DNA from: a virus
DNA: 64,000 nucleotides
Virus record (IMG/VR): IMGVR_UViG_3300045988_092438
Strand: one strand, 5' to 3'
How positions within the stretch are numbered: the first letter of the stretch is position 1; every line of letters begins with the position of its first letter. Below are positions 22,999-28,402 of this stretch, one piece after another. A program made the position numbers and the translations under genes. Under the pieces are notes generated by a model. That model had not been told where the DNA came from, ran no database searches, and saw only the letters and a list, made by a program, of their open reading frames with translations.

Positions 22999-24066
22999 TT
23001 ATGCAACTAACAACATTCCTCCGGCAATTCTCTCAAGCTCAATTCTTCTCTCAAGAGTGAAGTCCTGTGCAACTTGAGTAATAGAATTGATAAGACCCCA
23101 TCTGTTTCTGTTGTAAGTACCATCCTGCATAAGCTGAATAACTTTACCAGTACTTTCATCAGACATATTTGTGGAGTTCTTAATACTCTCAATAAGCTCC
23201 TTTAAGGAATCTTCATCTTTAAAAGCGTCCTCAAGTGAAACTGTGGCTGTGTTCTTAATACTTTCTACCACCTTTGCAACAATAGGCTCTACTAAATCAA
23301 GAGCTTCCTGCAAATTACTCTGGAACGCTTCTGTTGTGATACCTCTGTGTACTTGGTGGAATAACACACCGAATTTCTTCGGCACAATCAAACCATTGGT
23401 ACACACTTTCTTCCAGATAAAGAAGTTCACTGTCAAGTTACTTCTACCAACATCACTTGAGTCAATGGAAAAGCCCGGATAAAGGTCTTCGTTATCAATA
23501 GGAAGTCTTGTAGGTGACACCATTCTCATGTGCAATCTCTCTTCATTTAAGAAGAAACCTTTAATATTGTAGTCATCTACAGGGAAAGAGTCCTGCATAC
23601 TCTGTAAAATGGTAGGTGTATCGCACACTGAATATCTTGGTGTTAAAACACCTCTAATCTTTCCATTGTACTCACGGATAAACAGGTCTTTGTTAAAATC
23701 ACTCAGCCATGAGTTCATGTTATCTTGTGCAAGTTCAATTCTGCCAGAACTGATACACTTCTTCATATACTCATGTGGAACACCCACTTTGTTACACAAC
23801 TGACCCATAGCGTGTCTGGAAATGCTAGGTCTTCTCACTTCACCACTTTCAGTAGTGTATGTGATACCTGCAAGGTCATTTAATCTCAGTCTTTCATCAG
23901 TGACATTCCTCACTGTAAAATCTTCACATAAACTCTGAATGTTATGTGATTTATCCAGTATCATTTTAAATGATACTTTACCCATATCAAGTAACTCTCT
24001 TGTGTCTTCTGTTGGAGTAACAACCTGTGGTGTAATAATCTCCGTTGGTCTTTTCATCAGCTTCAT
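22999..24066 (-). CDS. DUF932-like phage/plasmid protein
   Basis: About 355 aa. ..SISRHAMGQLCNKVGVPHEYMKKC.. resembles the DUF932 family. Start moved to MKLMKRP (ATG 24066). Confidence 0.45.
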   Translation of the reverse strand: MKLMKRPTEIITPQVVTPTEDTRELLDMGKVSFKMILDKSHNIQSLCEDFTVRNVTDERLRLNDLAGITYTTESGEVRRPSISRHAMGQLCNKVGVPHEYMKKCISSGRIELAQDNMNSWLSDFNKDLFIREYNGKIRGVLTPRYSVCDTPTILQSMQDSFPVDDYNIKGFFLNEERLHMRMVSPTRLPIDNEDLYPGFSIDSSDVGRSNLTVNFFIWKKVCTNGLIVPKKFGVLFHQVHRGITTEAFQSNLQEALDLVEPIVAKVVESIKNTATVSLEDAFKDEDSLKELIESIKNSTNMSDESTGKVIQLMQDGTYNRNRWGLINSITQVAQDFTLERRIELERIAGGMLLVA

Positions 24067-24123
24067 GTTATATCTCCTTTCTATAACTGCTTCATTCACT
24101 CAGCTTGTACACTCATTATAGAA

Positions 24124-24172: not shown

Positions 24173-24715
24173 TTATACATCTTCTTCTAATAATACCCTC
24201 TTAAAGAGCTTCATTACTTTACCCGGCATTGCATGAGTTCTCACATACTTCTTTGCTTCTTCCGGTTCATCAAATGGCACCCAGTTAGAAAGATAGTTAC
24301 CAAGTGCTTCATTATAACGTGGAACACCACATACATAATCTCTCATAAAGACTTTACTCTCAGCACCTTCTAAGTCAAGGTCTCTAATAGGACTGTCCTT
24401 TCTCTGTCTCAATTCATTCATAAGCTGTTCCGTAGAAATACTGGACACTTGGAAATTGATACTCTCAACTCTCTCAAATCTATGTGTCTGACCTGTCTGG
24501 TTATCCCATCTTTCAGAAATAGTACCTTTATCAGTCTCAATACTGTTCCACTCTTCTACAGGTCTCACAAATACTCCGTATTCTGGGTGACACACATTAA
24601 AGTAGTAGCATACCCAAATGTCTCTCACTGCGTCTTTTGCGATATTCTGTACAAAATAGTACTCACCTTTAAAGTGTCTGTACAACCCCTGCTTTACTGT
24701 AATAGATTCATTCAT
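24173..24715 (-). CDS. DUF1653 domain protein
   Basis: N-terminal ..GLYRHFKGEYYFV...VCYYF.....GVFVRPVEEW.. matches the DUF1653 pattern. Confidence 0.55.
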   Translation of the reverse strand: MNESITVKQGLYRHFKGEYYFVQNIAKDAVRDIWVCYYFNVCHPEYGVFVRPVEEWNSIETDKGTISERWDNQTGQTHRFERVESINFQVSSISTEQLMNELRQRKDSPIRDLDLEGAESKVFMRDYVCGVPRYNEALGNYLSNWVPFDEPEEAKKYVRTHAMPGKVMKLFKRVLLEEDV

Positions 24716-25369
24716 TTAGTAGTCCTCCTTACTTTCATAAGCAAATACAGTTCCATCAACTGTGTCATAAACAGGTAACTTATTCACCCAATTTTCAGTA
24801 ACACTATCACTGTAGAAATAACACACATACTCTGGTAAATCTGTGCCATGTACAATTACCTTATACACATTTGCTAAGGTCTCTGGCTCAACTACTATAT
24901 CATCCATCATTCCATTGTATGCTACTGAAAATTGAGGACACCCATTATTCTTCTCATAGATGACTTCTTCAACACTGCTAGGAAATTTACCACTATGTAG
25001 TCTGTTTAAGATTACTTGACACACATACTGTTGACTCAGTTCATGTCCTTTATAACTACCTGCTTCTGCTTCAACACATTGAGCAATCAAATAAACCTCT
25101 GCTTCTGTAAAATAGTAGTCAGCTATTTCTACTTCCTTCAACTCGTCATTTTCTTTTAACAACTTTCCATAGTCAATCTGTAATTCTTCATAACTCTCTT
25201 GCCATGAATTGACTATTTTCTCATTATCACTTCTCTGCTTGTCTATTAAAGCTGTCTGCTCGTCATTCACCTCCAACAAGTCCATATAATCATCATTGGT
25301 CTTTATAAAGAAGACAAGAAATAGCACAAGCAATACAAGGATAATTCCTTGATAAACATGTTCCTTCAC
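24716..25369 (-). CDS. membrane-anchored SleB-like cell wall hydrolase (endolysin candidate)
   Basis: C-terminal ..AQCVEAEAG....QQYVCQVILNRL.SGKFPSSVEEVI...NGCPQFS.. is Hydrolase_2/SleB-like, with an N-terminal TM helix. Start moved to GTG 25369 (AGGAGG 9 nt upstream) because the track ATG sits inside the Ro60 terminator hairpin. Confidence 0.6.
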   Translation of the reverse strand: MKEHVYQGIILVLLVLFLVFFIKTNDDYMDLLEVNDEQTALIDKQRSDNEKIVNSWQESYEELQIDYGKLLKENDELKEVEIADYYFTEAEVYLIAQCVEAEAGSYKGHELSQQYVCQVILNRLHSGKFPSSVEEVIYEKNNGCPQFSVAYNGMMDDIVVEPETLANVYKVIVHGTDLPEYVCYFYSDSVTENWVNKLPVYDTVDGTVFAYESKEDY

Positions 25370-25388
25370 TTTTATAAACCTCCTAACT

Positions 25389-25424
25389 AAAAAAATAGCT
25401 TGCATGATTTCTCACACAAGCTAT
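25389..25424 (-). terminator. rho-independent terminator after the Ro60 gene
   Basis: 8-bp stem ATAGCTTG/CAAGCTAT followed by TTTTTTTAG on the minus strand. Confidence 0.65.
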
Positions 25425-25432
25425 TCTATCAT

Positions 25433-27115
25433 TTATTTTCGTGTTGGTAAAGTTTCCACAATAGAGTCAATAACCTTTCTCACATCACTTGCACCTGTAC
25501 CAATAGAACTATACACATTGATAACATCAATCACTCTTTCAGAAAAACCAGTGATAAGGTTCTTTCTGTAGTCATCAATATTAGCAATAGCAAAGTTATT
25601 ACCTAAAAGGTTATCAATGTAAAGTTTCTTAATGACCTTGTTTTTAAAGAGTTTATTCAACTCAGCGTCAGTATCATAACTTCTACCACCCCAACTATAA
25701 CCCCTTCTTAAAACAAAGGTCTTTCCACTTAAACTGTAGCAATCATTATCAGAAAGTACAATCAGATTATCATACTTAGTGTCCTGCTGATTAAGAGTGT
25801 AAAGTGCTACATCAAGAGAAGTTCCACCTCCAACATTATGTCTCTGAATCTCTTTCATAATGTCCATGACTGTAGACTTTCTGGAAATGTTAGTTACCTG
25901 TTCACACTTAGTAGCAAATACATACACATCTGCAATACCTTTCTTAAAGCAGATAGCACCTAACATACAAGCTACAATGTCAGCGGTCACATCAGAAGCA
26001 CCAGAAACAGGATGTCTCATACTTCCACTTCTATCAATAAGGATAGCACTGTAACCCTCAATGTCCTGTAAGTTATCAATAGACAGGTCAAGTGCTTCTA
26101 TTAAAGCGTCCATGACTCTTCTCTTTCCGGCAGAATTACTCAGATTGGAAACTTCCATATATGCACTGTAGAATCTGAATGGTAACAGTCTGGACTTCTC
26201 AACCTCTTTCTTATTGGTGAGTTTAGCCACAATACTATCAACTGCTTCTTTATCACTAAACATACCTGCTCTGTCAAGGGCTACAAGGTTTTTCACAATA
26301 GCCATTACAGAAGAGGTGTCAATAGACTTCTTAACATCAGCCTTAGTAGACTTGCTGTTGCTGTTCTTAGATTTAGAAAGCTCACTCTGCACCTGCTTCA
26401 CTTCTTCACTGCCACCAAACTCTACATTACCCTCGATAATCTGCTTAAAGAAGTCTCTGCTGACTCTGGACTTAGCCGGATTAGGTCTCAACAGCTTTAC
26501 ACAATCTGCCATAGACACTTCTCTGTTTTCTCCAAGTGCTTTAGATAACTGATACTCATTAAAGGACTCCAACTTGTGCTGTAAAGCCTTTCTCAACTGC
26601 ATTGGAAGTGGCTGATTTCTGTGACTGGATTTATTCTTACCACGACCTTTTGTAGTCACTTCAAAACCAAACACATTCATCTGCATTGCCATAATGTCAG
26701 TAATGTCTTTACCTCTTCTCACAATATAGTCACTGTAAGTCTGTAACTTATTCTTACCAGTCACTTCATCAAGAAAGTCCTCACCCTTAAATCTTGGGTC
26801 ATTAAAACAAGCTGTGAGTACTGCCAGAGGGTACTGAATCATATTGTATTCTCTACCAATTCTGGCTACCTTGAGTGCATACTCAACGTCCTCGTCTGGG
26901 ATTTCTGCAATCAATCTCTGGATTTCTTTAAAATCACTCTCAGCAGTCTTGCCCTTCTCATAGAAAGTCTTCTCACCAAAGAAGCTACCTAACACTTTAC
27001 TAAACAGTGTTTCAAGAGTGTTCAGCTTATGTACCACACTTCCCTCGTGGTTCACTGTCTTTCTAGTGTCTGGTTTCATGTTTACACTACCACGTTTGTT
27101 GTTCATTGTTGCCAT
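25433..27115 (-). CDS. rsr: Ro60 ortholog (TROVE domain + vWA/MIDAS domain), Rsr-like
   Basis: By eye, regions align with human Ro60. ..LLPFRFYSAY.. corresponds to the IHPFHILIA region. ..ILIDRSGSM.. corresponds to the MIDAS DxSxS motif. ..GGGTSLDVAL.., ..LIVLSDNDCY.. and ..NNFAIANIDDYRKNLITGFSERVIDVI.. correspond to [27 protein letters not shown]. Start moved to MATMNNK (ATG 27115, GGAGG 8 nt upstream). Confidence 0.85.
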   Translation of the reverse strand: MATMNNKRGSVNMKPDTRKTVNHEGSVVHKLNTLETLFSKVLGSFFGEKTFYEKGKTAESDFKEIQRLIAEIPDEDVEYALKVARIGREYNMIQYPLAVLTACFNDPRFKGEDFLDEVTGKNKLQTYSDYIVRRGKDITDIMAMQMNVFGFEVTTKGRGKNKSSHRNQPLPMQLRKALQHKLESFNEYQLSKALGENREVSMADCVKLLRPNPAKSRVSRDFFKQIIEGNVEFGGSEEVKQVQSELSKSKNSNSKSTKADVKKSIDTSSVMAIVKNLVALDRAGMFSDKEAVDSIVAKLTNKKEVEKSRLLPFRFYSAYMEVSNLSNSAGKRRVMDALIEALDLSIDNLQDIEGYSAILIDRSGSMRHPVSGASDVTADIVACMLGAICFKKGIADVYVFATKCEQVTNISRKSTVMDIMKEIQRHNVGGGTSLDVALYTLNQQDTKYDNLIVLSDNDCYSLSGKTFVLRRGYSWGGRSYDTDAELNKLFKNKVIKKLYIDNLLGNNFAIANIDDYRKNLITGFSERVIDVINVYSSIGTGASDVRKVIDSIVETLPTRK

Positions 27116-27151
27116 AATAAATTCCTCCATTCTTTCATGTGTTTATATAAT

Positions 27152-27183
27152 AAAAGACCTCACAATCGGGGAATTGTGAAGTC
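27152..27183 (-). terminator. rho-independent terminator closing the RNA-gene array
   Basis: 11-bp stem GACTTCACAAT/ATTGTGAGGTC (one G.U), loop TCCCCG, then TTTTATT on the minus strand. Confidence 0.7.
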
Positions 27184-27202
27184 CTTTAATCTTAACTCAA
27201 AA

Positions 27203-27351
27203 TAGCAAGAAGAAAACCATTATTGTGTGAAATCTTTGTGCTTCATTAGCAGTGAAGTGCCTTACCATTAGGCTATCTGTCAAATTTTTGGCTGACGGAG
27301 TAGGAGTCGAACCTACAAAATGATGTAAACAATAACTACACAATCCTGCTA
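27203..27351 (-). ncRNA. module M1: long covarying stem plus circularly permuted tRNA-Ser(GCU)-like head
   Basis: Minus strand reads TAGCAGGA-TTGTGTAG-TTATTGT-TTAC-ATC(A)TTT-T. The head follows: T arm GTAGG TTCGACT CCTAC, acceptor hairpin TCCGTCA [GCCAAAAATT] TGACAGA, TA, D arm GCC TAATGGTAA GGC, A, anticodon arm CTTCA CTGCTAA TGAAG. It closes with CAC-AAAGAT-TTCAC-ACAATAA-TGGTTTTCT-TCTTGCTA. Confidence 0.7.
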
Positions 27352-27369
27352 CAATTATTTCTTCGTTAA

Positions 27370-27519
27370 AATTAGGAGTAAAGCCATTTAGCTGAATTTC
27401 ATATAATGAAAGTTTTCAAGACTTTTGCGTATTCCAATTTCGCCAAATTGCTTTTACAGAGCAATTATCGGATTTGAACCGATATATTATGATGTAAGCT
27501 AAATGTACACAACCCAATT
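27370..27519 (-). ncRNA. module M2: long covarying stem plus circularly permuted tRNA-Ser(UGA)-like head
   Basis: Minus strand reads AATTGGG-TTGTGTA-CATTTAGCT-TACA-TCATA-ATAT. The head follows: T arm ATCGG TTCAAAT CCGAT, acceptor hairpin AATTGCT [CTGTAAA] AGCAATT, TG, D arm GCG AAATTGGAATA CGC, A, anticodon arm AAAGT CTTGAAA ACTTT. It closes with CATTA-TATGA-AATTC-AGCTAAATG-GCTTTACT-CCTAATT. Confidence 0.7.
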
Positions 27520-27533
27520 ATTATTCTCTCATA

Positions 27534-27659
27534 AAGTGGAGTAAAACGATAAAGTCTGTTTGTTTATCATAATGGGATTTGAACCCATATTCGTTCTGTG
27601 TTAGAAAACTGTCTTAACCATTTGACTATATGATGTAAACTTTATCTGCACAACCACTT
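27534..27659 (-). ncRNA. module M3: the same long stem enclosing a standard-order tRNA
   Basis: AAGTGG-TTGTGCA-GATAAAGT-TTA-[tRNA 27635-27564]-ACAAACAG-ACTTTATC-GTTTTACT-CCACTT. Both helices are perfectly complementary. Confidence 0.65.
27564..27635 (-). tRNA. tRNA with anticodon AAC (Val-type, unusual A34)
   Basis: CATCATA TA GTCA AATGGTTA AGAC A GTTTT CTAACAC AGAAC GAAT ATGGG TTCAAAT CCCAT TATGATA A. Cloverleaf folds but has a C1.A72 mismatch and a 4-nt variable loop. No CCA is encoded. Confidence 0.6.
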
Positions 27660-27675
27660 AATTTACTTTTCATCA

Positions 27676-27805
27676 ATAAGGAAGAAAAACGTGAAAGACT
27701 TCTTTTTCATATTGTTGGAATTGAACCAACTACACTTATTTCCCAAAAATAATGCTCTACCGATTGAGCTAAACATGATGTAATCTTTCACTACACATTC
27801 CTTAT
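27676..27805 (-). ncRNA. module M4: the same long stem enclosing tRNA-Pro
   Basis: ATAAGGAA-TGTGTA-GTGAAAGA-TTACA-[tRNA-Pro]-AAAGAAG-TCTTTCAC-GTTTTTC-TTCCTTAT. Both 8-bp helices are perfectly complementary. Confidence 0.65.
27706..27778 (-). tRNA. tRNA-Pro(UGG)
   Basis: TCATGTT TA GCTC AATCGGTA GAGC A TTATT TTTGGGA AATAA GTGTA GTTGG TTCAATT CCAAC AATATGA A. Canonical cloverleaf with G37. Confidence 0.85.
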
Positions 27806-27817
27806 TGTTTTAACACT

Positions 27818-27857
27818 GCTTTCAGCGTGTTTACACTATAACACACATTCTGAAAGC
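27818..27857 (-). ncRNA. hairpin resembling a headless copy of the module 5' arm
   Basis: GCTTTCAG-AATGTGTGTTATAGTGTAAACACG-CTGAAAGC. The loop carries AATGTGTG...TAAACA, similar to the conserved GGAATGTGTAG...TTACA of the modules. Confidence 0.35.
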
Positions 27858-27864
27858 TGTCAAA

Positions 27865-27937
27865 CTGCCCTTACTGGATTTGAACCAGTGAAATGCAGGA
27901 GTCAAAGTCCTGTGCCTTACCACTTGGCGAAAGGGCA
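27865..27937 (-). tRNA. tRNA-Gln(UUG)
   Basis: TGCCCTT TC GCC AAGTGGTAA GGC A CAGGA CTTTGAC TCCTG CATTTC ACTGG TTCAAAT CCAGT AAGGGCA G. Close to the E. coli tRNA-Gln layout. Confidence 0.85.
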
Positions 27938-27940
27938 TTA

Positions 27941-28030
27941 AAGCTGACATTTTCTCACGCATTTACCTTCCACCAGTGACACTTCTTAGTCATCACCAAT
28001 GGTACAGTCGAGTGGAGGGGCTGTCAGCTC
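27941..28030 (-). ncRNA. candidate structured RNA between tRNA-Lys and tRNA-Gln
   Basis: Closing stem GAGCTGACA/TGTCAGCTT (9 bp) and second stem CCTCCAC/GTGGA(A)GG. Apical hairpin GTGA..TCAC. No tRNA cloverleaf and no ORF. Confidence 0.35.
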
Positions 28031-28097
28031 ACCTACTTTGGCTTATCTCTAACACATGAAAGTGAGAGTGTTTCTCCGGCACATTACCTCCGAAGAG

Positions 28098-28170
28098 TCG
28101 GAATGACACGACTTGAACGTGCGACAAATAGATTAAAAGTCTACTGCTCTACCAACTGAGCTACATTCCG
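28098..28170 (-). tRNA. tRNA-Lys(UUU)
   Basis: CGGAATG TA GCTC AGTTGGTA GAGC A GTAGA CTTTTAA TCTAT TTGTC GCACG TTCAAGT CGTGT CATTCCG A. Canonical cloverleaf. Confidence 0.9.
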
Positions 28171-28402
28171 TTAAGTCACTGTGGTAGGAGAGTCCGTCTA
28201 TTATACTCTCTGTTCACACTTCATTGGATAGACTAAAGTGATTTCGGCTACTACCTCCTTGTCTGCTACTCATACATATCCGTCTTGTCTATCAAGACCT
28301 TTCGCTTTGGCAATCAACAAGTTTGTGACTATCAGCATTTTTATGTAAGTCCTCCACTCCTGGAATACCTTACTTAGTCGGCTGACAAGACTAAACTGAC
28401 TC

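What the first reader, a model, noticed from the sequence alone, without database searches (positions are those of the whole stretch)
27203..27805. Four tandem RNA modules with covarying helices and a conserved internal loop, each capped by a tRNA-shaped head, directly upstream of a phage Ro60 gene
Read on the minus strand, four consecutive 126-150-nt units occupy 27805-27676, 27659-27534, 27519-27370 and 27351-27203. All four share one architecture, from the outside inward:
- An outer helix: ATAAGGAA/TTCCTTAT, AAGTGG/CCACTT, AATTGGG/CCTAATT, TAGCAGGA/TCTTGCTA.
- An asymmetric internal loop with conserved sequence. The 5' side is TGTGTA, TTGTGCA, TTGTGTA or TTGTGTAG. The 3' side is GTTTTTC, GTTTTACT, GCTTTACT or TGGTTTTCT.
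- A second helix: GTGAAAGA/TCTTTCAC, GATAAAGT/ACTTTATC, CATTTAGCT/AGCTAAATG, TTATTGT/ACAATAA.
- A conserved 5' TTACA, then a tRNA-shaped head.

The helix sequences are unrelated between units yet stay complementary, with only G.U exceptions. The loop sequences are conserved. That is the signature of a selected RNA fold with a sequence-specific (protein-binding?) loop.

The array ends at a terminator (27183-27152), about 90 nt before the Ro60/TROVE start. A long terminal stem with a conserved loop plus a tRNA-like effector module is the known logic of Y RNAs and bacterial YrlA, which are usually encoded next to rsr. Here the loop sequence is not one I can match to known Ro-binding sites. Two heads (Pro-UGG and an AAC-anticodon tRNA) are complete standard tRNAs, and there are four copies in tandem. 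An alternative reading is that these are dedicated tRNA-processing stems (RNase III-like).
Basis: partly seen in the sequence, partly recalled or inferred. Interest (0 to 1): 0.9.

Follow-up and report, generated by a model that had tools for sequence, protein, structure and literature searches.

The report
Phage Y RNAs capped by tRNAs
A gut phage encodes, just upstream of its Ro60 gene, four small RNAs that each join a conserved Ro60-type stem to a complete or rearranged tRNA; this is an unusual variant of the bacterial YrlA "Y RNAs" that may show how they arose from tRNAs.

Summary
Four units (27806-27675, 27661-27532, 27520-27369, 27351-27203, minus strand) lie between a strong sigma-70-type promoter and a terminator, 37 nt upstream of a TROVE/vWA Ro60 gene. 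Each has the same stalk: H1, a conserved loop (UUGUGYA / GNUUUNCU), an 8-bp H2, then UUACAUCAU.

Across 42 distinct units from relatives, all 16 stalk pairs covary (95% paired against 61% in shuffles). Units 1 and 2 carry standard cloverleaf tRNAs. Units 3 and 4 carry circularly permuted tRNAs (T arm, closed acceptor, D arm, anticodon arm).

A covariance model built on the permuted units finds the same architecture upstream of Ro60 homologues only 24-31% identical. A related stalk signature (AGUGYA-N8-UUACUUC) occurs 55 times upstream of those genes and 0 times elsewhere on that strand. Rfam YrlA gives significant scores below its gathering threshold.

These are therefore diverged YrlA-family Y RNAs, and almost certainly Ro60 ligands. 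What is new is that the heads are full tRNAs that keep anticodon loops. The anticodons are fixed in units 1 and 3 and switch between relatives in units 2 and 4. Binding and function are inferred, not shown.

The parts
27835..27863 (-). Sigma-70-type promoter of the array: TTGACA, 17 nt, TATAGT, with an upstream TG.
   Evidence: 11 of 12 matches. Equivalent TTGACA-17-TATAGT/TATGAT boxes sit at the same place in L126 and L129, with a weaker one in L127 (by eye).
27675..27806 (-). Unit 1. H1 27806-27799 / 27682-27675; loop 27798-27792 / 27690-27683; H2 27791-27784 / 27698-27691; junction UUACAUCAU 27783-27775. The head is a standard tRNA with anticodon UGG at 27778-27706.
   Evidence: CM R1 scores 56.4 bits. 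The anticodon loop is invariant in the 6 aligned unit-1 orthologues.
27532..27661 (-). Unit 2. H1 27661-27654 / 27539-27532; loop 27653-27647 / 27547-27540; H2 27646-27639 / 27555-27548; junction 27638-27630. The head is a standard tRNA at 27635-27564 with anticodon AAC and a C1.A72 mismatch.
   Evidence: CM R1 scores 50.0 bits. The anticodon differs among relatives: AAC, GCA, UCC, GUU, GUC, UUU, UCA.
27369..27520 (-). Unit 3. H1 27520-27513 / 27376-27369; loop 27512-27506 / 27384-27377; H2 27505-27498 / 27392-27385; junction 27497-27489. The head is a permuted tRNA: T arm 27483-27467, closed 7-bp acceptor hairpin 27466-27446, D arm 27443-27427, anticodon arm 27425-27409 (UGA).
   Evidence: CM R1 scores 147.9 bits.
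27203..27351 (-). Unit 4. H1 27351-27344 / 27210-27203; loop 27343-27337 / 27218-27211; H2 27336-27329 / 27226-27219; junction 27328-27320. The head is a permuted tRNA: T arm 27316-27300, closed acceptor hairpin 27299-27276 whose loop starts G-CCA, D arm 27273-27259, anticodon arm 27257-27241 (GCU).
   Evidence: (Rfam YrlA 28.7 bits, E 8e-4). CM R1 scores 139.8 bits. The anticodon among relatives is GCU, UUU, GUU, UGA or ACG.
27145..27188 (-). Intrinsic terminator closing the RNA array: a 17-bp hairpin followed by a U-rich tail.
   Evidence: -20 kcal/mol, z -5.5. Hairpins of different sequence followed by T-runs occupy the same position in L003, L127 and L129.
25433..27115 (-). Phage Ro60 gene (TROVE plus Ro60-type vWA domain), 560 aa. 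RBS GGAGGA at 27127-27122.
   Evidence: PF05731 5.7e-15, PF25045 9.7e-9; the closest solved structure is Thermus phage phiLo Ro60, 9KOP/9L5Y, E 6e-16.

Best explanation
The four units are a polycistronic array of Y RNAs of the YrlA family and are the RNA partners of the phage Ro60 encoded immediately downstream.

**Transcription.** It starts at the TTGACA-17-TATAGT promoter (27863-27835) and mostly stops at the terminator (27188-27151). The RNAs are therefore made in excess over Ro60, which is reached by read-through.

**The stalk.** In each unit the 5' and 3' ends pair into a roughly 23-bp irregular rod: H1, a conserved 7/8-nt loop containing a G.U-U.U-G.U block, an 8-bp H2, and the junction UUAC-AUCAU. 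This is the lineage's version of the Ro60-binding module, the positional equivalent of GNCGAAN0-1G ... YUAY in YrlA.

**The head.** This distal 'effector' module is a tRNA. Units 1 and 2 carry an ordinary cloverleaf whose acceptor stem continues into the stalk. Units 3 and 4 carry a circular permutation in which the acceptor stem is closed by a loop and the stalk leaves at the variable-arm position.

**Proposed action.** By analogy with characterised Ro60/Y-RNA particles, the stalk docks the Ro60 ring. The L-shaped head then tethers it to a tRNA-recognising host factor, or gates access to the ring.

**Shown versus inferred.** Shown here: the architecture, the covariation, the linkage to Ro60 over large evolutionary distance, and homology to YrlA. 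Inferred: physical Ro60 binding, how the precursor is processed, and the identity of the partner that reads the tRNA head.
For: - **Stalk covariation.** In 42 distinct units, 95.1% of cells are paired against 60.8% in shuffles. All 16 pairs change on both sides. The covariation score is 0.863 against 0.225 (0 of 500 shuffles reach it) and 0.10-0.17 when partners are slid.
- **Loop core.** It is conserved as G.U / U.U / G.U, and the rare changes stay pairable.
- **Permuted heads.** On an unfitted MAFFT alignment, 96.1% of cells are paired against 68.8%, and 29 of 38 pairs covary. This includes the acceptor hairpin (7 of 7 pairs) and the anticodon arm (5 of 5).
- **Distribution.** Three or four units sit upstream of Ro60 in most relatives with 60-97% identical Ro60. 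L150 (64%) has two and L144 (49%) has one. The window has none elsewhere in 64 kb, and tRNA-Lys and tRNA-Gln lack a stalk.
- **Distant Ro60 loci.** CM R1 finds full-length matches on the Ro60 strand, nearly all within a few hundred nt upstream of distant Ro60 genes.
- **Stalk signature.** NNGUG[ACU][AC]-N8-9-[AU]UAC[AUC]UC occurs 55 times upstream of 41 distant Ro60 genes (33 loci have at least one). It occurs 0 times on the rest of that strand and 3 times on the other strand.
- **Rfam YrlA.** E = 8e-4 for unit 4, and 1e-7 to 1e-2 for the related RNAs.
- **Literature.**
  - YrlA RNAs lie within 4 kb of Ro60 on the same strand, in bacteria and phages, and mimic permuted tRNAs (PMC4201824; bioRxiv 10.1101/312249).
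  - Thermus phage phiLo Ro60 binds two Y-like RNAs encoded upstream of its gene (PMC12135203).
Against: - No binding or expression data exist for this phage.
- The literal YrlA motif GNCGAAN0-1G is absent, and the Rfam score (28.7 bits) is far below the gathering score of 69.
- The heads of units 1 and 2 are good tRNAs (61 and 58 bits) that RNase P and 3'-end enzymes would be expected to excise. The stable species might therefore be tRNAs rather than Y RNAs.
- No RNA-repair or exonuclease partner gene was seen among the 26 window ORFs scanned: six around Ro60 and 20 of the 54 ORFs of at least 150 aa.
- In the stalk-only alignment the 3' partner was chosen by best pairing within a search range. 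That inflates the percentage paired, although the register is fixed by the conserved loops.
Confidence: 0.75

Rival explanations
1. The stalks are processing or expression signals (RNase III-type, as at phage T7 sites with internal loops) for a special set of phage tRNA genes. The functional products would be mature tRNAs (Pro-UGG, Val-AAC and others), and the link to Ro60 would be only positional.
For: The heads of units 1 and 2 score as bona fide tRNAs. Unit 1 keeps UGG in all six aligned orthologues, and no other tRNA-Pro was called in the tRNA arrays of L001-L005. H1, the quasi-helical loop and H2 together span about two helical turns.
Against: - The same stalk caps non-tRNA heads of 34-79 nt.
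- It also caps permuted heads that cannot become tRNAs by removing the stalk.
- Other tRNAs of the same phage lack it.
- The stalk signature follows Ro60, not tRNAs, across distant genomes.
- The loop is held as G.U/U.U/G.U rather than any duplex.
- The unit-2 anticodon changes while its acceptor stem and discriminator stay the same. Some loops are 6 or 8 nt long.
Confidence: 0.1
2. Units 3 and 4 are true permuted (split) tRNA genes. RNase P cuts 5' of the closed acceptor's second strand, the other end is trimmed to CCA, and the result is a two-piece, chargeable class-II-like tRNA. Its long 'variable arm' is the stalk.
For: - Un-permuted sequences are called tRNA-Ser(UGA) and tRNA-Ser(GCU) by ARAGORN.
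- The acceptor stem is 7 bp.
- The unit-4 loop begins N-CCA in 7 of 10 variants.
- M. smegmatis YrlA is cut by RNase P and receives CCA in vivo (PMC4201824).
Against: - The unit-3 acceptor is closed by 4-7-nt loops with no CCA.
- The unit-4 anticodon switches (GCU, UUU, GUU, UGA, ACG) without matching acceptor changes.
- There is no specific similarity to the tRNA-Ser(GCU) gene of the close relative L001.
- The amino-acid label comes from the anticodon alone.
Confidence: 0.08
3. The tRNA heads are baits. On this view, Ro60-tethered anticodon stem-loops act as decoys, sponges or sensors for host anticodon nucleases or other tRNA-targeting defences, and the anticodon is swapped as hosts change.
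For: - Differences between close relatives concentrate in the anticodon. In unit 4, window versus L002, 2 of the 3 substitutions outside the acceptor loop lie in the anticodon. In unit 2, L135 versus L139, it is 1 of 2 differences.
- Positions 33 and 37 of the loop are kept.
- Anticodon-like CUGUUAA hairpins recur even in minimal heads (L144, L150, L143).
- Salmonella rsr-yrlBA sits in an operon induced by damaged tRNAs (PMC7790460).
Against: - Purely circumstantial.
- Units with identical Ro60 are identical, so there is no rapid variation.
- Anticodons in units 1 and 3 are fixed.
- The YrlA literature points to the elbow, not the anticodon, as the conserved surface (10.1101/312249).
Confidence: 0.07

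Closest known systems
YrlA RNAs (Rfam RF02553; Salmonella, Mycobacterium smegmatis, mycobacteriophages; Chen et al. 2014, PMC4201824; Wang et al. 2018, bioRxiv 10.1101/312249)
   Same: - Encoded just upstream of Ro60 on the same strand.
- The 5' and 3' ends pair into a long stem: helix, asymmetric loop, 7-8-bp helix, YUAY junction.
- The distal module is a tRNA mimic with a T arm, a closed acceptor hairpin and a D arm (units 3 and 4).
- A 7-bp acceptor with CCA-like sequence, as in M. smegmatis YrlA.
- Often several Y RNAs per locus.
- Significant Rfam alignments below the gathering threshold.
   Different: - The literal GNCGAAN0-1G motif is replaced by GG(A/G)-UUGUGYA opposite GNUUUNCU.
- YrlA has no anticodon loop and leaves the tRNA-like fold through the anticodon stem. 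Units 3 and 4 keep a full anticodon arm and leave at the variable-arm position.
- Units 1 and 2 are not permuted at all; they are complete cloverleaf tRNAs.
- The Rfam score is 28.7 bits against a gathering score of 69.
Yrl1/Yrl2 of Thermus phage phiLo with phage Ro60 (PMC12135203)
   Same: A phage-encoded Ro60 with tandem Y-like RNAs directly upstream, and a stem-bulge-stem stalk. The phiLo protein is the closest solved structure to the window Ro60.
   Different: The phiLo RNAs carry a CGAA bulge. No tRNA heads were found in the passages I read from that paper. Here there are four modules with tRNA heads and a different loop sequence.
Deinococcus radiodurans Yrn1/Yrn2 and the Ro60-Y RNA-PNPase (RYPER) particle
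   Same: A modular Y RNA: a Ro60-binding stem plus an effector module with a T-arm-like element. Co-transcribed with a tRNA as a polycistronic precursor (PMC4201824).
   Different: Yrn1 keeps the metazoan-like conserved helix and only part of a tRNA shape. Its partner, PNPase, is known, whereas none is known here.
Permuted tRNA genes of Cyanidioschyzon merolae and two-piece (permuted) tmRNAs
   Same: The 3' half (T arm and acceptor 3' strand) is encoded upstream of the 5' half (acceptor 5' strand, D arm, anticodon arm), as in units 3 and 4.
   Different: Those genes yield functional tRNA or tmRNA through circularisation or defined cleavage. Here no such pathway is evident, the break lies in the variable region, and it is extended into a Ro60-type stalk.

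Membership tests
YrlA-type bacterial/phage Y RNA | Encoded within 4 kb of a Ro60 (TROVE) gene on the same strand | tested here: met
   The units lie 88-690 nt upstream of the TROVE/vWA_Ro60 ORF on the same strand.
YrlA-type bacterial/phage Y RNA | [quoted passage not shown] | tested here: met
   H1 and H2 covary in 42 units and are recovered by MFE folding.
YrlA-type bacterial/phage Y RNA | GNCGAAN0-1G motif on the 5' strand (proposed Ro60 contact) | tested here: not met
   The 5' strand reads GG(A/G)-UUGUGYA. It is positionally equivalent. Distant relatives have AGUGYA, and L146/L147 have CGAAGUG.
YrlA-type bacterial/phage Y RNA | Conserved YUAY at the junction into the tRNA-like module | tested here: met
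   UUAC is present in 38 of 42 units (variants CUAC, GUAC, AUAC), and the U-A-C is invariant.
YrlA-type bacterial/phage Y RNA | tRNA-like module in the order T arm, closed acceptor hairpin, D arm | tested here: met
   Met for units 3 and 4. Not met for units 1 and 2, which have the normal tRNA order.
YrlA-type bacterial/phage Y RNA | No anticodon loop; the anticodon stem continues into the Ro60-binding stem | tested here: not met
   All four heads have a 5-bp stem with a 7-nt anticodon-type loop. The arm covaries at 5 of 5 pairs.
YrlA-type bacterial/phage Y RNA | Reaches the Rfam RF02553 gathering score (69 bits) | tested here: not met
   Unit 4 scores 28.7 bits, E 8e-4. Units 1-3 have no reported YrlA hit. 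Related RNAs score 30-46 bits.
YrlA-type bacterial/phage Y RNA | Bound and stabilised by Ro60 in vivo | not testable with these tools
   Needs RIP or EMSA.
tRNA (RF00005), units 1 and 2 | Cloverleaf scoring above the Rfam gathering score, with a canonical 7-nt anticodon loop | tested here: met
   61.1 and 57.6 bits against a gathering score of 29. ARAGORN calls Pro-UGG and Val-AAC.
tRNA (RF00005), units 1 and 2 | Stable decoding identity among orthologues | tested here: inconclusive
   Unit 1 is UGG in all six aligned orthologues. Unit 2 switches among at least 7 anticodons with the same acceptor stem, and some relatives have 6- or 8-nt loops.
Metazoan-type Y RNA (RF00019) | Conserved bulged helix GGUCCGA / UUGAC | tested here: not met
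   No Y_RNA hit even at E <= 10 over 27100-28250.
RNase III processing stalk | About 20 bp or more of duplex flanking the product, with no requirement for specific loop sequence | tested here: inconclusive
   8 + 8 bp plus a quasi-helical loop fits the length. However, the loop sequence is conserved and the stalk also caps non-tRNA heads.

The most novel reading that the evidence does not exclude
This phage lineage tethers complete tRNAs, with working-looking and evolutionarily switchable anticodon loops, to Ro60 through a Y-RNA stalk. Two readings follow.

1. The units are living intermediates of the proposed origin of YrlA from tRNA or dimeric pre-tRNA: a whole tRNA on a stalk, then a permuted tRNA that keeps the anticodon arm, then YrlA.
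2. The Ro60 particle uses anticodon arms as exchangeable specificity modules. Examples would be baits for host anticodon nucleases, or a way to hand Ro60-associated nucleases or repair enzymes onto particular tRNA-directed machinery.

A sub-variant is that units 3 and 4 mature into two-piece chargeable tRNAs.
Probability: 0.2. Interest if true: 0.85.

Novelty: new variant of a known kind. Interest (0 to 1): 0.62.

Why it matters
The partner and purpose of the tRNA-like module of bacterial Y RNAs are still unknown. This lineage offers versions in which the module is an entire tRNA or a permuted tRNA with an anticodon arm. These sit beside minimal versions with only an anticodon-like hairpin, all on one conserved Ro60-type stalk.

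That gives a natural series for three purposes:
- asking which tRNA surface matters;
- testing the tRNA-origin model of YrlA;
- defining a broader stalk signature (GUGYA-N8-UUAC) for Ro60-linked RNAs that score below the Rfam YrlA gathering threshold in gut and rumen Firmicutes and their phages.

It also makes a concrete question testable: why do phages carry Ro60?

Tried and rejected
- **blastn against cultured phages.** Searching the region found only generic tRNA-level matches. Ro60 itself is under 30% identical to anything in that collection.
- **Rfam at gathering thresholds.** It reports only four tRNAs.
- **First viral-contig pattern scan.** TGTGYA-N6-12-TTACATCAT was too loose. None of the 120 loci returned carries a real unit: best scores were 12-13 of 14 and none had the 3' loop motif. 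They served as a null for my detector.
- **Units 3 and 4 as copies of a phage tRNA-Ser.** No specific similarity to the tRNA-Ser(GCU) of the close relative L001.
- **Strain-level hypervariation of anticodons (DGR-like).** Six contigs encoding the identical Ro60 carry the same four units. The only difference is a 1-nt deletion in the unit-4 anticodon loop of L233. A seventh contig (L238) is too short upstream and shows a truncated unit 4.
- **RNA-repair partners in the window (RtcB, Pnkp, RNA ligase).** None found among the 26 ORFs scanned, which do not include 34 of the 54 ORFs of at least 150 aa. Found instead: a myovirus structural module, NrdD, ThyX, PolA, RecA, UvrD, DnaG and an ATP-dependent DNA ligase.
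- **Chance or pseudogene array.** Rejected by the covariation.
- **Host identification from genome contigs.** The only close hit is a 2.8-kb contig binned into a Spirochaetia MAG, probably a stray phage fragment.
Full report
**1. What is in the sequence**

Read on the minus strand, the region contains, in order:
- tRNA-Lys (28170-28097) and tRNA-Gln (27937-27865);
- a near-consensus sigma-70 promoter, TTGACA-17-TATAGT with a TG (27863-27835);
- four units of 130-152 nt;
- a 17-bp terminator hairpin (27188-27151; -20 kcal/mol, z -5.5);
- after a GGAGGA ribosome-binding site, a 560-aa ORF (27115-25433) with TROVE and Ro60-type vWA domains.

The closest solved structure to this ORF is the Ro60 of Thermus phage phiLo.

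The window is a myovirus: sheath, baseplate, portal and terminase, plus NrdD, ThyX, PolA, RecA, UvrD and DnaG. It has no cultured relative, since its Ro60 is under 30% identical to anything in the phage collection. At least some relatives come from gut metagenomes: 3 of the 12 contigs fetched are so labelled.

**2. The units**

Every unit has the same stalk:
- H1, 6-8 bp;
- a 7-nt 5' loop, N-U-G-U-G-Y-A;
- H2, 8 bp;
- the junction UUACA-UCAU, leading into the head;
- a 5-11-nt spacer, then H2';
- an 8-nt 3' loop, G-N-U-U-U-N-C-U;
- H1'.

In the window, H1 is 6/6 and H2 is 8/8 paired in all four units, although the helix sequences are unrelated. MFE folding of each unit alone recovers both helices. 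The motif TGTGYA-N10-ACATCAT occurs four times in 64 kb, only here, against 0.3 expected.

The heads of units 1 and 2 are standard tRNAs, with anticodons UGG and AAC (61.1 and 57.6 bits). The heads of units 3 and 4 run T arm, closed 7-bp acceptor hairpin, D arm, anticodon arm. When the order is restored through the stalk, ARAGORN calls them class-II tRNAs with anticodons UGA and GCU. They are therefore circularly permuted tRNAs whose opening lies at the variable-arm position.

**3. Comparative evidence**

I fetched Ro60 relatives at 49-97% identity from viral, metagenomic and genomic collections.
- Most carry 3-4 units in the same place. L150 (64%) has two and L144 (49%) has one.
- In a stalk-only alignment of 42 distinct units, 95.1% of cells pair, against 60.8% in shuffles. 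All 16 pairs change on both sides. The covariation score is 0.863 against 0.225 (0 of 500 shuffles reach it) and 0.10-0.17 for slid partners.
- Caveat: the 3' partner was located by best pairing, although the register is fixed by the conserved loops. The 120 chance pattern hits reached at most 13 of 14 pairs, without the loop motif.
- The 'internal loop' contains an invariant pairable block: G11.U49, U12.U48, G13.U47. Rare changes give G-C, U-A, U.G or A-U. It is thus held as wobble pairs rather than as any duplex.
- A plain MAFFT alignment of 19 permuted units gives 96.1% paired against 68.8%. 29 of 38 pairs covary, including the acceptor hairpin (7 of 7) and the anticodon arm (5 of 5).

**4. 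Heads are interchangeable; the stalk is not**

In relatives the same stalk caps four kinds of head:
- standard tRNAs;
- permuted tRNAs;
- YrlA-order heads: hairpin, T arm, closed acceptor, D arm (L143:2114, L150:290);
- short non-tRNA hairpins of 34-79 nt (L126:199, L143:2277, L144:2343, L150:435).

ACAUCAU is conserved even though the acceptor stem of unit 2 starts two nucleotides earlier than that of unit 1. It therefore belongs to the stalk signal and is not a tRNA identity element.

**5. Link to Ro60 and to YrlA**

- Unit 4 aligns full-length to Rfam YrlA (28.7 bits, E 8e-4, gathering score 69).
- A covariance model of the permuted units (R1) hits only the four units in the window (148, 140, 56 and 50 bits).
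- R1 also finds full-length matches on the Ro60 strand, nearly all within a few hundred nt upstream of Ro60 homologues only 24-31% identical. These lie in rumen and gut Clostridia MAGs and in other viral contigs, often two or three in tandem.
- Their stalks read (C/U/A)AGUG(C/U)A-N8-UUACUUC, and several have GCUUUUCU as the 3' loop. In GC-rich loci the sequence CUCGAAGUG joins the known CGAA motif to the GUG conserved here.
- This signature occurs 55 times upstream of 41 distant Ro60 genes (33 loci). It occurs 0 times in the remaining 153 kb of that strand and 3 times on the opposite strand.
- Those RNAs score 30-46 bits against Rfam YrlA.

The published description of YrlA matches the architecture. 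It specifies a 5'-strand motif, YUAY, T-AS-D arms and a closed acceptor, calls the RNA 'circularly permuted tRNA'-like, and places the gene within 4 kb of Ro60 in bacteria and phages (PMC4201824; 10.1101/312249). It also states that YrlA lacks an anticodon loop.

**6. What is unusual here**

- Two modules are complete, unpermuted tRNAs on a Y-RNA stalk.
- The permuted modules keep a full anticodon arm and leave the fold at the variable region rather than through the anticodon stem.
- The unit-4 acceptor loop begins N-CCA in 7 of 10 variants. This recalls M. smegmatis YrlA, which is cut by RNase P and receives CCA (PMC4201824).
- Anticodons behave differently by unit. Unit 1 is always UGG in its aligned orthologues. 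Unit 3 is UGA in all nine heads of the CATTTAGC stalk type, while its stem covaries. The unit-3-position heads of L126 and L127, on other stalks, have different loops. Unit 2 (AAC, GCA, UCC, GUU, GUC, UUU, UCA) and unit 4 (GCU, UUU, GUU, UGA, ACG) switch between otherwise near-identical RNAs.
- Contigs with identical Ro60 have essentially identical units, so this is not rapid variation. A few relatives have 6- or 8-nt loops.

**7. Mechanism, and what is shown versus inferred**

Shown: one promoter-to-terminator RNA array; a selected stalk fold with a conserved wobble loop; selected tRNA folds; stalk-Ro60 linkage over deep divergence; homology to YrlA.

Inferred: the stalk docks the phage Ro60 ring as in other Y RNAs. 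The tRNA head is the effector module that brings in, or blocks, a tRNA-recognising host factor. Ro60 is made by terminator read-through.

I put 0.75 on 'Ro60-binding YrlA-family Y RNAs'. The rivals are:
- processing stalks for ordinary tRNA genes, 0.10;
- true split tRNA genes, 0.08;
- anticodon baits against host tRNA-targeting defences, 0.07.

These rivals concern what the heads do and are partly compatible with Ro60 binding.

**8. Verdict**

The finding is real and correctly interpreted, but it is a new variant of a known kind rather than a new class.

Its value lies in three things:
- the natural series of heads, from whole tRNA through permuted tRNA with an anticodon arm and YrlA-like heads to a bare hairpin;
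- the support this gives to the tRNA-origin model of YrlA (10.1101/312249, discussion);
- a stalk signature that extends the family beyond what Rfam's gathering threshold captures.

Noticed in passing
L162:1512-2096 (+), with a Ro60 homologue at L162:2501-3928: A full-length OLE RNA (RF01071, 383 bits) lies about 400 nt upstream of, and on the same strand as, a distant Ro60/TROVE homologue in an uncultured Clostridia MAG. A stalk-signature match (UAGUGUC-N8-AUACUUC) sits between them at 2363.
   Followed up: no
L147:1730-2300; also L146, L148, L157, L180: Distant Ro60 loci carry up to five tandem stalk modules that alternate YrlA-type and simple hairpin heads. Arrays of Y RNAs therefore seem to be the rule in these lineages.
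   Followed up: partly
L230:1130 (unit-2 position); L127:2620 (unit-3 position): In L230 the unit-2 position carries anticodon UCA, which ARAGORN calls 'tRNA-SeC' and which looks like an opal suppressor. In L127 the anticodon arm of the permuted unit-3-position head may read CUA. Suppressor-like anticodons thus occur on the same scaffolds.
   Followed up: no
L238:111 onward; L233:1269: Among contigs with the same Ro60 protein, one has a deletion that fuses unit 4 to the terminator. Another has a 6-nt anticodon loop in unit 4. These may be natural variants or assembly errors.
   Followed up: no
L126, L129, L130, L235-L237 (contig ends about 800 nt upstream of Ro60): Many metagenomic contigs end or begin inside or just upstream of the unit array. 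This suggests that the repeated stalk and tRNA sequences break short-read assemblies.
   Followed up: no
L186-L229 (Streptosporangiales and other actinobacterial loci), roughly 0.1-1.5 kb upstream of Ro60: ARAGORN calls odd short 'tRNAs' (67-74 nt, with the anticodon at position 29-33 and varied anticodons). These are probably the tRNA-like domains of canonical YrlA. GNCGAAN0-1G is present within 1.5 kb upstream in 26 of 43 of these loci.
   Followed up: partly
window 24173-24715 (-), 22999-24099 (-), 24716-25405 (-): Ro60 is followed by a DUF1653 gene and then a DUF932 gene in every relative fetched with enough downstream sequence. In most, a SleB-type cell-wall hydrolase lies between Ro60 and DUF1653. 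L126 (76%) and L127 (71%) lack the hydrolase. Any functional link is unknown.
   Followed up: no
window 27853-27815 (-): A hairpin, GCUUUCAG...CUGAAAGC, spans the promoter spacer, the -10 box and the start of the transcript. Its sequence is conserved in close relatives.
   Followed up: no
window + strand 5767, 6817, 7574, 8291, 20121, 38796, 55173: The 8-mer TTACATCA occurs 7 times on the non-coding-sense strand, against roughly 2 expected by composition. This is probably chance.
   Followed up: no
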